A stretch of DNA of 64,000 nt from Ostreococcus lucimarinus. Lineage: Eukaryota. Both the position numbers and the translations under genes were made by a program. The notes beneath the pieces are model-generated. The model had not been told where the DNA came from. It worked only from the letters and a program-made list of their open reading frames with translations, and did not search any database. Below are positions 16,937-20,752 of the stretch, one piece after another. Location of the stretch: NCBI GenBank assembly GCA_000092065.1, contig CP000587.1; one strand, given 5' to 3'. Every line of letters begins with the position of its first letter. Within the stretch, counting starts at the first letter, position 1.

Positions 16937-19732
16937 GTGACGTGGACAACGAAGTCGTTTCGATCGCGCGACATGTCCTCGCGCGCTCCCACGGACGAAC
17001 TCGCGGCGTTCTTGGACTACTTGCCGTCGCATCCACACGTCGGCGCGGGGGCTGCGTTGGACGATGGCTTAGAGGCGGACATATGGGATTCGATCGAGCT
17101 CGAACTCACGCGTGAAGTCGACGCGAGGACGGCGAACGATAATGGCGATCACAACGCGTTAGACGTCCGCGAAGGACGATCAACTCGAGGACGGGACGCG
17201 TCGACAAAGGACACGGCGAGAGGGACGAGAGGGCGTCGGCGAGCTTCGACGACTTCGAGGTCAAGGTCGCGCTCGTTGACCAAGCACACTCAGAAGGATG
17301 CGTTCGGACTCGTGAGAGGGGCTTATGAAACGGTGGAATCGAACGCGAGCGATGCCTCGGTGAACACCATGATGAAGCAACTCAACGATGCGCTGAACGC
17401 CGTCTCCGCCGGCTTGGGCGACGGTTGCCTCGCACAGATTTGGTTTGTTGAACGCGAAAATGACGACGTACTATTGCACACGGTGACTGAGTACGTGCGA
17501 GTGTGCAGTGAACATCGCTCGGATGCCCTTTGGGCGTTTCACCGCGGATGTACGTCGTTCATGTTGAACGTCGCGATCGCGGGCTCGGATGGTTTCACGC
17601 CTGGCTCGGGGGCGCCGGGACGCGTATTCGCGACGAATAGACCGGAGTGGACGCCATCGGTGCAGTGTTATCATCCATCGGAGTTTCCAAGAAATTCACT
17701 GGCGATCGAATGCGGGTGTTACAGTCAGTTGATCGTACCCGTGAACGCGAAACCGCAATCCACGACGCCGTTTGCGTTGCTTGAAATCACATTCCTGCAT
17801 GTGTTGGACAACATGGGTTCGGTTTACTCGCACGTCGTTCGCGAAATGACCAACGCGGGATTACACACTCCAATATCCGAAACGTTAGCGCCGCCGCCGG
17901 TGCTGATGGATAAAATTGCCGGAGAAGTTGCACGGTTGAAGGTAGCGGAGACGCAAAAGGGCTTGCAGATGATATGCTCCCGTCTTGAAATTCCGTTTGC
18001 GCAAATTTGGATCCCTCACGACGTGGATGGCACTCTAATTTGCGTGGGGACACCTTATTATCAGAAGTCGAATCATTTTCTTCACTATAGGAACGCATCT
18101 ATGAATCTCGCAATATCTCAGCACACCGGCTCCTTGTCCAAGGTTTGGAAAAACGGTTCCATGGTGTGGATGCATGATCTGAGCACGCTATCTCATCGCG
18201 ACTTTCTTTTGAAGCATTCATGTGATTTACTCAAGTTGCAAGCGATGTGTATTTCGAAGATTGCGTTGAAAGGTGTGACATCAGGTCAACCACTTCAGGT
18301 GCTGGTAGAGATCTTCCTCGATCCCAGCCTCAAGTCTCCGCGCGATCAGGCAAAGACAGTGCAGTCGTTTTGGTCCTCGGTTGAGGCGGATTTGAACGCT
18401 AGTGTGGTGACGGATACCGACAAAACATGGCTCGAAGAGATGAAAAAGAACCAGACAGCTTCTTCAAGCGGGGCAAATCCGGATGCCGCCGGAACAGCAT
18501 TGTGGGGTATCACCCTTGAGGTTTTGCAGCAAAACTTTCACAAGCATTTGAAACAAGCGGCGAGCGACCTCGGCGTCGGGAGCACAACGCTGAAACGAAT
18601 ATGCCGACAATACGGTATCCGTCGTTGGCCGCGAAGAAGTCTTAATAGCAAAAATGGTCATATGTCTGATATATTGGCAAAGAGTATCGCCACTGGCGCG
18701 ACTATGAGCGACGACGGCGCTGGGGAGTCTGTCCACGGAGGCGCTAGTTGCGTGTCGCACACTTCAGAAATCGGCGCATCAGGTACACTACCCTCACAAA
18801 GCATAAAGTCTCACTCACTCAGAGATATCGCCACGTTTTCGCCGACAACATCGGAGAAAAATAAGAGAGCTCTCGAGCAACGCGTTCACCGAGGTGGCAA
18901 TCTCGGCGCTTTTTGGCAAGGCGAAGGGGTGTCAAAAATGCAGCGCGGCATGAGCTGGCATGGGAACAATCAGGCGAGAGATGCGCTTGATTTTGACTTC
19001 CCAAATCGCTACGAGCAAAGCGTTCATGGTGTGTATAACTTTAATATGCCGCCACCACCGATGGACCAAAGTGTTCGAGGGGCGAGCACGTACAACGCCC
19101 TCTCCCTGGACGCGTCCGAAGAAATGGCGAGTTTTATCGATAAATTGGTTAAAGAACCTGAGAAAGAACCGGTGGTTGTTAAGGTACAAGTGCGTGATGT
19201 GCTCATACGAGTTCGATTGGTGACAAATGAGAGATATGTTGAACTCGTCGATGCGCTGACTGATTTGCTCGATCTACAAATGTCTTCGTGCAAGCTCAAA
19301 TATCAAGACGACGAGCAAGACTGGTGCTTGTTGCGTAATCAAGAAGATTTCGATGAGTGCTGGGCTTTCTGTACGCGACGTGGTTCGTCGTGCACGATGC
19401 GTGTAAAATTGACGATCGAAGAAGGAGTTGAGACAAAATCTCTATTCAAGCCGCAGCGCGCGCGAGCTGAAGTGCCGGACGCACAGGCGAAACCAATATC
19501 CGTAAAAGCAAGTGTTGGCGAAGACGTGCTACGATTCAAGTTAACGACAGAGATGTCGTGCGATGACATCGTAGCCAAGCTCAATCTCGCAGAAAATTCC
19601 TCTCAAAGTGTCACTTTGTGCTATCAAGACGAGGACGAGGACTGGATTCGACTCGGCGGTGACTATGACTTAGCTGAGCTTCGGCACGTCGGCAGCGCCA
19701 CGGGAGCGCTTAAACTGCAAGCAAACTATTAG
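16937..19732 (+). CDS. NIN-like (NLP) transcription factor: N-terminal GAF-like region, RWP-RK domain and two C-terminal PB1 domains
   Basis: RWP-RK core is [34 protein letters not shown]1 #1 is [15 protein letters not shown]...[16 protein letters not shown]1 #2 is [18 protein letters not shown]...[22 protein letters not shown]. Confidence 0.8.
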
Positions 19733-19840
19733 TGTTTTTGTATTGTACAAAAGTTTTTCTGTAGAAATGCACTCGCTGTTCTGTCTCAATCTTCTCACAA
19801 TGTCTTACACAAACGTGAGCGGCGCTGAAACGCGGAGCGG

Positions 19841-20752
19841 CTAAGGCTGCTGAAGAAAAGCTAAGGCTGCGAGCAAGACGATCTGCACCACGAAACCGGG
19901 AGCTAACGATGGATCGGGCAATAAGTTCGAGTACATCAGGGTCTTACGCGCGCCCTCGCCGACGGCATCGAGCAAACCAGCGTACTTTTCGCTCTCGTAC
20001 TCCAAACCGCCTTCATCTATGAGCGCCGGGAATCCACCAGGGACGTATCTAACGTCCGTGTACCCAGCTTGCACGAGCTCGTACGCCGCGCGCAAGCTCA
20101 ACGAATCTCCACGGTCGCTGACAGCGGTTGAACCATTGAGTGGGGCGATGTCGAGATCGCCCCCTCGCAAATCGACGAGGACGACGGCGTCCCGGCGATT
20201 TTTCGTCACCTCAGCCACGACGTCTACGAACGCGACGTTGCGTTCCTTCAGCCCACCCTTGATGGCCAAGAAGTACCCACTCGCGCGTCTCAACACGTTT
20301 TCCATGGGCACTAAATACGGTGCGCTCTTCGTTCCCACCAGCCTCCACTCCGCGTGTTCGAGCGGTTGTCTCACGTCGACGACGACGCCTCTTCTCTTCC
20401 CCGACAACATCTCCGCCACCTCGTTCGCCGTCGCCGCGCGCACCTTTTTACTCTTCACCAGCGTTTCGTATATCTCACCGTATTTCGGGCTTCCCGGTCC
20501 CTTTCCCGGGATAACGCTCGACGCCGACGTCGACGTCGACGCCCGCGTCGTCGTCGCTCTCGCCATCTTCTTCGTCTTGGTCGTCGTTCGTCGTCGTTCG
20601 ACGCCTCGAGGCGAGTTCGACCTCGCCGTCGACGCGCTCGACGCGCGCATCGTCTTCGTCTTCGTCGCGCGTCGCGCCTCGCGCGTCGCGCCTCGGTGCG
20701 CCGCGGAGTGGTTCGACGCCGACGCATCCGTCGCGGCGTGACGTCGACCCAC
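19841..20752 (-). CDS. Rhodanese-like domain protein with a C-terminal transmembrane anchor (plastid STR-like)
   Basis: The rhodanese fold shows in VVVDVRQPLEHAEWRLVGTKSAPY...VVLVDLRGGDL...AGYTDVRYVPGGFPAL. C-terminal TM is FVVQIVLLAALAFL. The S/T/R-rich N-terminus is a possible transit peptide; the true start may be an internal Met (~20566). Confidence 0.6.
   Translation of the reverse strand: MGRRHAATDASASNHSAAHRGATREARRATKTKTMRASSASTARSNSPRGVERRRTTTKTKKMARATTTRASTSTSASSVIPGKGPGSPKYGEIYETLVKSKKVRAATANEVAEMLSGKRRGVVVDVRQPLEHAEWRLVGTKSAPYLVPMENVLRRASGYFLAIKGGLKERNVAFVDVVAEVTKNRRDAVVLVDLRGGDLDIAPLNGSTAVSDRGDSLSLRAAYELVQAGYTDVRYVPGGFPALIDEGGLEYESEKYAGLLDAVGEGARKTLMYSNLLPDPSLAPGFVVQIVLLAALAFLQQP

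What the first reader, a model, noticed from the sequence alone, without database searches (positions are those of the whole stretch)
16937..19732. NIN-like (RWP-RK) transcription factor with two tandem PB1 domains
The RWP-RK core is unambiguous ([18 protein letters not shown]), and the N-terminal region resembles the GAF-like nitrate-responsive part of NLPs. Land-plant NLPs end in a single PB1 domain. Here two PB1-like modules follow one another (…[14 protein letters not shown]… and …[22 protein letters not shown]…), each with the basic Lys and the acidic OPCA-like stretch. Tandem PB1s would allow head-to-tail self-oligomerisation without a partner. This is relevant to how nitrogen signalling is wired in a minimal green alga.
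Basis: partly seen in the sequence, partly recalled or inferred. Interest (0 to 1): 0.5.

Follow-up and report, generated by a model that had tools for sequence, protein, structure and literature searches.

The report
Green-alga NLP factor with two PB1 domains
This is a real, intact gene for a NIN-like (nitrate-type) transcription factor of an Ostreococcus-like picoalga that does end in two PB1 protein-binding domains, but the layout is shared by its whole algal order and has already been noted in print, so it is only a modest curiosity.

Summary
It carries GAF_NLP, RWP-RK and two PB1 modules.

Both modules keep the beta1 Lys and an acidic OPCA stretch. AlphaFold2 gives both the PB1 fold (pLDDT 83.5).

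The tandem is not peculiar to this alga. It is conserved, module for module, in about 14 Ostreococcus-like proteins, in Bathycoccus prasinos and in Micromonas 'nit2-like protein 2'. The a/b split is old (30-37% identity). Most NLP relatives have one PB1 (116 of 150 representatives), but some asterid plants have 2-6.

A 2024 paper already states that the O. lucimarinus NLP (Ol24740) has two PB1 domains.

My best guess, with pTM 0.79 and 0.76 in two orthologues, is that the two PB1s pack into one defined unit. This is a prediction only. A role in nitrate signalling is inferred from homology alone.

Verdict: a known family and a documented but unstudied architecture. Interest is low to moderate.

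The parts
16973..19732 (+). Complete intronless CDS of the NLP-type transcription factor (919 aa plus stop).
   Evidence: ORF list, sequence around the start codon, and identical 919-aa gene calls in other assemblies.
17375..17761 (+). N-terminal GAF-like lobe 1 (aa ~135-263), containing the NLP signature block GAPGRVF...[10 protein letters not shown]...EFPR.
   Evidence: Weak GAF_NLP match when scanned alone (16.2 bits, below the 24.1 cut-off). In the profile search this is the part best matched by most land-plant NLPs (profile positions ~110-340). G213-V218 are invariant in A1.
17933..18379 (+). GAF_NLP domain, lobe 2 (aa ~321-469).
   Evidence: Pfam PF22922 scores 44.1 bits when scanned alone and 52.8 bits in the whole protein, against a cut-off of 24.1.
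18509..18649 (+). RWP-RK DNA-binding domain (aa 513-559). The motif reads RWPRRS here rather than RWPxRK.
   Evidence: Pfam PF02042 scores 74.9 bits against a cut-off of 29.3. The stretch is invariant across the 12 homologues.
18863..19030 (+). Conserved unannotated block (aa 631-686) carrying two of the recurring [ST]xHG motifs (SWHG, SVHG). A third, SVHG at aa 586, lies upstream of it.
   Evidence: Near-invariant in A1. No Pfam match (protein 5). Motif census.
19169..19411 (+). PB1-a (aa 733-813), type I/II: beta1 Lys K737 and OPCA core Y777-Q-D-D-E-Q-D-W784.
   Evidence: Pfam PB1 scores 47.0 bits when scanned alone. K, D779, D780, E781 and D783 are invariant. AF2 gives bbabbab topology with pLDDT ~90. 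Foldseek top hits are the NBR1 and PKCiota PB1 domains.
19412..19489 (+). Inter-module linker (aa 814-839, 26 residues) with a semi-conserved hydrophobic/basic patch (LFKPQ).
   Evidence: Alignment A2. The linker is 24-37 aa in all lineages. pLDDT is 61-79 and there is one beta-bridge residue.
19490..19729 (+). PB1-b (aa 840-919), type I/II: beta1 Lys K845 and OPCA core Y884-Q-D-E-D-E-D-W891. It ends at the protein's C-terminus.
   Evidence: Pfam PB1 scores 33.4 bits when scanned alone. K845, D886, W891, D899, L900 and E902 are invariant in A1. AF2 gives the complete bbabbab fold.
19301..19324 (+). DNA encoding the OPCA core of PB1-a. Its only DNA-level repeat partner is 19622-19645 (the OPCA core of PB1-b), 83% identical and 321 nt (107 codons) downstream.
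   Evidence: the repeat finder. No other DNA similarity between the modules remains, which fits an ancient duplication.

Best explanation
The gene encodes the single NLP-type (GAF_NLP, RWP-RK, PB1) transcription factor of an Ostreococcus-like picoalga. It belongs to an orthologue group present throughout the order Mamiellales, whose members all end in two ancient, diverged type I/II PB1 domains (PB1-a, then PB1-b).

Shown here: the domain content; the integrity of both PB1 modules, including fold, beta1 Lys and OPCA acidic stretch; one-to-one conservation of the modules in Ostreococcus-like algae, Bathycoccus and Micromonas; and a linker of constrained length.

Inferred:
(i) PB1-b corresponds to the single C-terminal PB1 of ordinary NLPs and PB1-a is the extra module.
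(ii) The protein binds DNA through RWP-RK and, as in plant NLPs, uses front-to-back Lys/OPCA contacts to oligomerise on target promoters, probably those of nitrate-assimilation genes.
(iii) The two PB1s dock on each other in cis into one defined di-PB1 unit. That unit would still expose one basic and one acidic face and would polymerise as a larger building block, not as two independent beads.

The confidence given (0.55) is for the whole package. The identity and conservation part alone would rate about 0.9, the cis-docking step about 0.4, and the nitrate role about 0.6-0.7.
For: Domains.

Conservation of the tandem, by the curated Pfam model: Micromonas pusilla CCMP1545 nit2-like protein 2 (XP_003058325.1), Bathycoccus prasinos (CAL6325403.1 cluster), P0259, P0260 and P0275 each show 2 PB1 stretches, whereas the paralogue P0057 shows 1. 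With my own HMM, all 14 Ostreococcus-like proteins have two.

Module orthology: Bathycoccus module 1 scores 61.7 bits on the a-HMM against 34.8 on the b-HMM, and module 2 scores 25.8 against 53.9. The lone PB1 of the ~1010-aa paralogues scores 11-17 bits higher on the b-HMM. NJ bootstrap support is 42% for b plus singles, 0% for a plus singles and 0% for a and b as sisters.

Interface residues: the beta1 Lys is invariant in both modules, YxDDExDW is invariant in module a, and module b stays acidic but is more variable.

Linker: 24-37 aa in all lineages once the Bathycoccus insertion is placed inside PB1-a.

Structure: pLDDT 83.5 and pTM 0.79 for the query's 205-aa C-terminus, and pTM 0.76 for the Micromonas-group orthologue P0260. 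My inference is that if only one ~80-residue lobe of a ~205-residue chain were confidently placed, pTM would be limited to about 0.4. The best fold matches are PB1 domains of NBR1, PKCiota/Par6, Cdc24, MAP2K5 and the PKCzeta-p62 complex.

Function of PB1 in NLPs: PMC6393987. One NLP per O. lucimarinus genome: PMC11291829 and PMC11148446.
Against: No experiment exists for any Mamiellales NLP. The 2015 review states that outside Chlamydomonas the regulators of nitrate assimilation in green microalgae are unknown.

Genomic context gives no support, because the neighbours are housekeeping genes and not the nitrate cluster.

The cis-docking idea rests only on AF2 pTM values. I could not obtain coordinates or PAE, so I did not verify that the contact uses the Lys/OPCA faces. 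The two predictions share most of their alignment, which is shallow (14-20 sequences). AF2 also tends to pack tethered domains together.

The assignment of PB1-b as the canonical module is weakly supported (bootstrap below 50%). Land-plant PB1s do not clearly favour either module (95 against 48, mean difference 3 bits).

Conservation of the NLP7 nitrate-pocket residues and of the Ser205 site was not tested.
Confidence: 0.55

Rival explanations
1. Open, multivalent arrangement. The two PB1 domains do not dock on each other but act independently in trans. Each molecule would then offer two basic and two acidic faces, so it could cross-link or branch NLP polymers, or PB1-a could recruit a different PB1 partner while PB1-b mediates NLP-NLP contacts.
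For: All four interaction faces keep their key residues across three genera, which is what would be expected if all four are used. The linker is partly disordered, with pLDDT below 50 over ~20 residues in the Micromonas model. Micromonas also has a single-PB1 NLP paralogue that could serve as a hetero-partner.
Against: pTM values of 0.79 and 0.76 indicate a confident relative placement of the two lobes. Linker length is constrained to 24-37 aa and includes a semi-conserved patch. Ostreococcus has only one NLP, so an NLP hetero-partner is lacking there.
Confidence: 0.3
2. One of the two modules is a non-interacting relic or a purely structural spacer, and the protein behaves like an ordinary single-PB1 NLP.
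For: The OPCA of PB1-b is noticeably less conserved than that of PB1-a, for example YRDEEDSW, YLDDSEEW and YKDDVGELC. PB1-b scores lower on Pfam (33.4 bits, profile positions 2-65 only).
Against: Both modules exceed the Pfam cut-off. Both keep an invariant beta1 Lys and a net-acidic OPCA across lineages only 25-35% identical in this region. Both are predicted as complete PB1 folds. A relic would not be expected to survive intact in three genera.
Confidence: 0.1
3. The protein is an NLP by architecture but does not control nitrate assimilation. It might instead regulate another nitrogen-status, stress or life-cycle programme, as many algal RWP-RK factors do.
For: There is no functional data in Mamiellales and no linkage to the nitrate gene cluster. 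I did not verify the conservation of the residues that make plant NLP7 nitrate-responsive. The RWP-RK motif reads RWPRRS rather than RWPxRK.
Against: The full NLP domain set is present, including the NLP-specific GAF model. It is the only NLP in the genome according to two surveys. NLPs and NIT2 are the nitrate regulators in land plants and in Chlamydomonas respectively.
Confidence: 0.2
4. Artefact: the second PB1 belongs to a separate downstream gene that has been fused in silico, or results from an assembly duplication.
For: None found. I considered this only because some land-plant multi-PB1 models look like recent or artefactual repeats; the Camellia repeats are 91-100% identical to each other.
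Against: The ORF is continuous in the window. The same gene call appears in at least four independent assemblies and in three genera. The modules are only 30-37% identical to each other, and the only DNA repeat is the 24-nt OPCA core.
Confidence: 0.01

Closest known systems
Land-plant NIN-like proteins (for example Arabidopsis NLP7 and NLP6)
   Same: They share the domain order: GAF-like N-terminus (Pfam GAF_NLP), RWP-RK DNA-binding domain and a C-terminal type I/II PB1 with a beta1 Lys and an OPCA motif. In plants the PB1 mediates NLP-NLP homo- and hetero-oligomerisation needed for full nitrate-induced expression (PMC6393987).
   Different: This protein has two PB1 modules instead of one and RWPRRS instead of RWPxRK. 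It has recurring [ST]xHG motifs between RWP-RK and PB1 that are absent after RWP-RK in the four plant NLPs checked. The gene is intronless, and nitrate responsiveness is unproven.
Mamiellales orthologues: Micromonas pusilla CCMP1545 'nit2-like protein 2' (XP_003058325.1 / C1MRL0), the Bathycoccus prasinos unnamed protein (CAL6325403.1) and O. lucimarinus JGI model Ol24740
   Same: They have the same architecture, including PB1-a followed by PB1-b, with module-for-module orthology. Ol24740 is reported as a 2,172-bp single-CDS gene with two PB1 domains. That length is exactly what the 919-aa frame gives if it is started at Met197.
   Different: The Micromonas and Bathycoccus proteins are about 1200 aa, with Gly-rich or poly-Q low-complexity insertions. 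One of these lies inside the alpha2-beta5 loop of PB1-a in Bathycoccus. Micromonas additionally has single-PB1 and PB1-less paralogues.
Chlamydomonas NIT2
   Same: It is a green-algal RWP-RK factor with an N-terminal GAF domain and is the master regulator of nitrate assimilation (PMC4620153).
   Different: As described in that review, NIT2 has a Gln-rich interaction region and a leucine zipper around RWP-RK, and no PB1 is listed. Surveys count 0 NLPs in Chlamydomonas. The 'nit2-like' name on the Micromonas orthologue is nominal only.
Filament-forming or oligomerising type I/II PB1 domains (p62/SQSTM1, NBR1/AtNBR1, plant ARF and Aux/IAA)
   Same: They share the beta-grasp PB1 fold and the front-to-back Lys/OPCA logic. 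The NBR1 PB1 is the best structural match (TM 0.80), and the AtNBR1 PB1 filament entry is also matched.
   Different: Those proteins carry one PB1 per chain. No solved structure matched both lobes in the predicted geometry. Two-lobe matches (USP7 HUBL, ISG15, OASL, talin) had rmsd of 14-16 A.
Asterid NLP-like proteins with PB1 arrays (Camellia sinensis KAF5936050.1, Coffea NLP6-like XP_027076557.1, Paulownia KAI3470610.1)
   Same: They are NLP-family proteins with more than one C-terminal PB1.
   Different: They carry 3-6 copies, many of them young (Camellia 91-100% identical). They arose independently, may partly be annotation artefacts, and the Coffea isoform shows no RWP-RK hit. In Mamiellales there are exactly two ancient, differentiated modules.

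Membership tests
NIN-like protein (NLP) subfamily of RWP-RK transcription factors | RWP-RK DNA-binding domain | tested here: met
   PF02042 scores 74.9 bits against a cut-off of 29.3, at aa 525-571 of the 931-aa translation. The motif variant is RWPRRS.
NIN-like protein (NLP) subfamily of RWP-RK transcription factors | C-terminal PB1 domain | tested here: met
   Two copies are present, scoring 47.0 and 33.4 bits against a cut-off of 23.6. The second copy ends at the C-terminus.
NIN-like protein (NLP) subfamily of RWP-RK transcription factors | N-terminal NLP-type GAF-like region | tested here: met
   PF22922 GAF_NLP scores 52.8 bits against a cut-off of 24.1. The upstream lobe is homologous to the conserved N-terminal block of plant NLPs.
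NIN-like protein (NLP) subfamily of RWP-RK transcription factors | Conservation of the functionally defined NLP7 residues (the nitrate-pocket 'HLY' residues and the CPK site Ser205) | not tested
   The primary paper (PMC9628810) is not held, so I could not map the residues reliably.
NIN-like protein (NLP) subfamily of RWP-RK transcription factors | Nitrate-dependent activation and binding to nitrate-responsive elements | not testable with these tools
   This needs experiments. No study in Mamiellales was found.
PB1 domain, type I/II (AB) | Ubiquitin-like beta-grasp fold, bbabbab | tested here: met
   The AF2 secondary-structure order is correct for both modules, with pLDDT mostly 85-95. Foldseek matches the PB1 domains of NBR1 (TM 0.80), PKCiota (0.78), Cdc24 and MAP2K5.
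PB1 domain, type I/II (AB) | Conserved Lys on beta1 (type II / basic face) | tested here: met
   K737 in module a and K845 in module b are invariant in alignments A1, A2 and A3.
PB1 domain, type I/II (AB) | OPCA acidic motif (type I / acidic face) | tested here: met
   Module a has YxDDExDW invariant. Module b has Y/F-x-D-[DEA]-x-[DEG]-[DES]-[WL], which is always net acidic but variable.
PB1 domain, type I/II (AB) | Actual front-to-back binding | not testable with these tools
   I had only indirect evidence (AF2 pTM 0.79 and 0.76).
Chlamydomonas NIT2-type regulator | GAF plus RWP-RK within a leucine zipper plus a Gln-rich region, with no PB1 listed in the description | tested here: not met
   The query has two PB1 domains. 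The NIT2 description comes from PMC4620153, and Chlamydomonas is scored as having 0 NLPs.

The most novel reading that the evidence does not exclude
In the ancestor of Mamiellales the NLP acquired a second PB1. The two PB1s now form an obligate intramolecular pseudo-dimer, a di-PB1 unit not seen in any solved structure. This unit would change the geometry or valency of NLP polymerisation on chromatin, and it would let the single NLP of Ostreococcus and Bathycoccus do what land plants achieve with homo- and hetero-oligomers of several NLP paralogues.
Probability: 0.3. Interest if true: 0.45.

Novelty: already known. Interest (0 to 1): 0.25.

Why it matters
NLPs are the central nitrate-response transcription factors of plants, and their PB1-mediated oligomerisation is needed for full gene induction. 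Mamiellales picoalgae are major marine primary producers, with tiny genomes and, in Ostreococcus, a single NLP.

A conserved di-PB1 tail gives a simple natural system for asking how PB1 valency shapes transcription-factor assembly. It also gives an obvious first candidate for the still unidentified nitrate regulator of these algae.

The gene and its two-PB1 layout are already in databases and have been mentioned in one paper. What this work adds is limited to three points: the layout is ancient and order-wide, the modules are orthologous one-to-one, and a compact unit is predicted.

Tried and rejected
1. I first thought linker length varied greatly (27 to 99 aa), implying a floppy tether. Inspecting the alignment showed that the Bathycoccus excess is a low-complexity insertion inside PB1-a, and the true linkers are 24-37 aa.

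2. Sequence search of the C-terminus against PDB gave only marginal PB1 hits (E 0.2-0.8) and a spurious fibronectin type II / MMP9 match. It was not informative and was superseded by the fold search.

3. A Biopython bootstrap run timed out. I redid it with my own distance code. The resulting support values are low because only 82 columns are available.

4. The third homology search, with the tandem-PB1 profile, returned only 8 short algal fragments, so the tandem could not be extended beyond Mamiellales.

I therefore obtained no organism names from it and made no survey for di-PB1 units elsewhere.

6. The Liu et al. 2022 NLP7 sensor paper is not held, so the nitrate-pocket residue test was abandoned.

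7. Genomic context was checked for a nitrate-assimilation cluster and none was found.

8. The gene-fusion or assembly-artefact explanation was considered and rejected.

9. Species identity could not be established from names. The Ostreococcus assignment rests on ~58% GC, on relatedness to Bathycoccus and Micromonas proteins, and on the exact length match to Ol24740.
Full report
**1. What is there.**
Window 16937-19732 (+) is an uninterrupted reading frame. The first ATG is at 16973, giving a 919-aa protein. Gene callers on several independent assemblies produce the same 919-aa single-exon product in the same neighbourhood: His-biosynthesis gene, eIF2A, this gene, a 241-aa gene, then an ABC transporter. 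The database representative P0001 differs from the window protein at 2 of 919 residues.

Pfam finds RWP-RK (74.9 bits), PB1 (68.3 bits, 2 stretches) and the NLP-specific GAF model GAF_NLP (52.8 bits, 2 stretches).

**2.
The finding was to be refuted if only one segment scored as PB1. Scanned as separate ~95-aa pieces, PB1-a scores 47.0 bits (E 2.6e-12) and PB1-b scores 33.4 bits (E 4.6e-08). Both exceed the 23.6-bit gathering score.

The modules align to each other at 30% identity over 84 residues. The only DNA-level trace of the duplication is the 24-nt OPCA core, repeated 321 nt apart.

AlphaFold2 on the last 205 residues, using a 20-sequence alignment, gives mean pLDDT 83.5 and the PB1 bbabbab order for both modules. 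The best solved-structure matches are PB1 domains: NBR1 (TM 0.80), PKCiota/Par6 (0.78), Cdc24, MAP2K5, the PKCzeta-p62 complex and the AtNBR1 filament.

**3. How unusual is it?**
I ran an exhaustive profile search of 1.84 billion representative proteins. It found 2,940 relatives at E up to 0.001 and 123 at E up to 1e-30.

I counted domains with an iterated local PB1 HMM over the best 150 plus the 12 close homologues:
- 116 proteins have one RWP-RK and one PB1.
- 14 have one RWP-RK and two PB1s. These are the query's own clade plus one 1234-aa protein.
- A handful have 3-6 PB1s.

Cluster look-ups and Pfam rescans identify these groups:
- The 1234-aa protein is from Bathycoccus prasinos.
- A further set of ~1200-aa tandem proteins includes Micromonas pusilla CCMP1545 'nit2-like protein 2' (XP_003058325.1) and another Micromonas 'Nit2-like protein 2'.
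- The multi-PB1 outliers are asterid land plants: Camellia 6, Coffea 5, Paulownia 3, Escallonia 2.

The curated Pfam model reports 2 PB1 stretches in each algal protein rescanned, 1 in the ~1010-aa paralogue P0057, 6 in Camellia and 5 in Coffea. The tandem is therefore the conserved state of one NLP orthologue group across Mamiellales, not a peculiarity of a minimal genome. The single-PB1 rule for land plants is a majority rule with exceptions.

**4. Age and origin of the two modules.**
HMMs built only from the Ostreococcus-like a and b modules sort the Bathycoccus modules one-to-one. Module 1 scores 61.7 bits on the a-HMM against 34.8 on the b-HMM, and module 2 scores 25.8 against 53.9. The duplication therefore predates the Bathycoccus/Ostreococcus split. 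Because the same a-then-b order occurs in Micromonas, it probably predates Mamiellales diversification.

The lone PB1 of the ~1010-aa Micromonas-like paralogues scores 11-17 bits better on the b-HMM. In a bootstrapped NJ tree, b plus singles is recovered in 42% of replicates, a plus singles in 0%, and a and b as sisters in 0%. This points to PB1-b as the counterpart of the ordinary C-terminal PB1, but only weakly. Land-plant PB1s do not discriminate between the modules (95 prefer b, 48 prefer a, mean difference 3 bits).

Modules a and b are 30-37% identical within a protein in all three genera. By contrast the Camellia repeats are 91-100% identical to each other.

**5. Interaction surfaces and linker.**
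The beta1 Lys is invariant in both modules. PB1-a keeps a strict YxDDExDW. The OPCA of PB1-b stays acidic but varies. Both modules therefore qualify as type I/II.

The apparent 89-99-aa linker in Bathycoccus is a low-complexity insertion in the alpha2-beta5 loop of PB1-a. True linkers are 24-37 aa in all lineages and contain a semi-conserved hydrophobic/basic patch.

**6. Mechanism.**
This is not specific to a tandem. A single type I/II PB1 already homo-oligomerises front-to-back, and this is the documented behaviour of plant NLP PB1 domains, where it is required for full nitrate-induced expression (PMC6393987).

What a tandem could add is one of two things: (a) a closed intramolecular a:b pair that polymerises as a larger unit, or (b) extra valency.

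AF2 gives pTM 0.79 for the query's two-PB1 construct. It gives 0.76 for the Micromonas-group orthologue P0260, which is about 28% identical, even though its linker is disordered. With two ~80-residue lobes in a ~205-residue chain, a pTM this high implies confident relative placement, and this favours option (a). It remains a prediction: I had no coordinates or PAE, the alignments are shallow and overlapping, and the use of the Lys/OPCA faces was not verified.

No solved structure shares the two-lobe geometry. Tandem-Ubl proteins match only at 14-16 A rmsd.

**7. Function.**
The nitrate-regulator role is inferred from architecture only. Two surveys count a single NLP in O. lucimarinus. Outside Chlamydomonas, regulators of nitrate assimilation in green microalgae are described as unknown (PMC4620153). 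The neighbours in the window are housekeeping genes (amine oxidase, PRMT-like, His biosynthesis, eIF2A, ABC transporter, Ham1, cullin) and not the Ostreococcus nitrate cluster.

**8. Prior knowledge.**
The orthologues are deposited and carry precomputed PB1, RWP-RK and GAF_NLP annotations.

[quoted passage not shown] Starting the 919-aa frame at Met197 gives 723 codons plus a stop, which is exactly 2,172 bp. Ol24740 is therefore almost certainly this locus, or its strict orthologue, with a truncated N-terminus. An Arachis NLP with two PB1 domains is also in print.

I found no paper that analyses the tandem, its conservation or its consequences.

**9. Verdict.**
It is a documented but unstudied architectural variant of a well-known family. 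Interest is 0.25.

Noticed in passing
window 18728-19030 (aa 586-686 of the 919-aa protein); also P0201, P0295, P0260, P0057, P0058: A short [ST]xHG motif (SVHG, SWHG, SMHG and similar) recurs 2-7 times between RWP-RK and the first PB1 in every Mamiellales NLP checked, against 0.2-0.7 expected per protein from composition. It does not occur after RWP-RK in the four land-plant NLPs checked. The surrounding block [15 protein letters not shown]...RGxSWHGN...RFEQSVHG is nearly invariant and has no Pfam match. Its function is unknown.
   Followed up: partly
P0092 (Camellia sinensis KAF5936050.1), P0144 (Coffea arabica XP_027076557.1), P0183 (Paulownia fortunei KAI3470610.1), P0178 (Escallonia rubra KAK2991422.1): These asterid NLP-family proteins carry 6, 5, 3 and 2 tandem PB1 domains. 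The Camellia repeats are 91-100% identical to each other (a recent expansion or an annotation artefact). The Coffea repeats are 34-96% identical and recur in three Coffea species. The Coffea isoform shows no RWP-RK hit in Pfam.
   Followed up: partly
window 16973-17560 compared with the published O. lucimarinus model Ol24740: The published gene length of 2,172 bp equals this ORF started at Met197, so the JGI model seems to lack the first 196 residues, including part of the first GAF-like lobe. That would explain why the 2024 survey reported that the O. lucimarinus NLP 'lacked several conserved motifs'.
   Followed up: partly
window 18620-18640 (RWP-RK core): The signature reads R-W-P-R-R-S rather than the canonical R-W-P-x-R-K. 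This is invariant across the 12 close homologues.
   Followed up: no
P0201 / P0056 (Bathycoccus prasinos), aa ~1048-1100: PB1-a of Bathycoccus carries a low-complexity insertion of about 50 residues (Asn/Ser-rich plus poly-Gln) in the alpha2-beta5 loop. This makes HMM-based domain boundaries misleading.
   Followed up: yes
clusters of P0278 and P0001: Fragments of these algal NLPs are deposited as 'hypothetical protein [Pseudomonas aeruginosa]' (WP_121331760.1) and as partial E. coli proteins, probably from contaminated bacterial assemblies. JGI labels two fragments 'DNA-binding Lrp family transcriptional regulator', which is a misannotation.
   Followed up: no
window 19841-20752 (-): The convergent downstream gene (303-aa ORF, called as 241 aa in other assemblies) has no Pfam match and a long Arg/Thr/Ser-rich N-terminus. 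Its 3' end lies about 110 nt from the stop codon of the NLP gene.
   Followed up: no
window 18001-20000: G+C drops to 0.50 over the 3' half of the gene, compared with 0.585-0.607 in the flanking 2-kb bins. Similar dips occur elsewhere in the window (4-6 kb, 30-32 kb), so this is probably ordinary heterogeneity.
   Followed up: no
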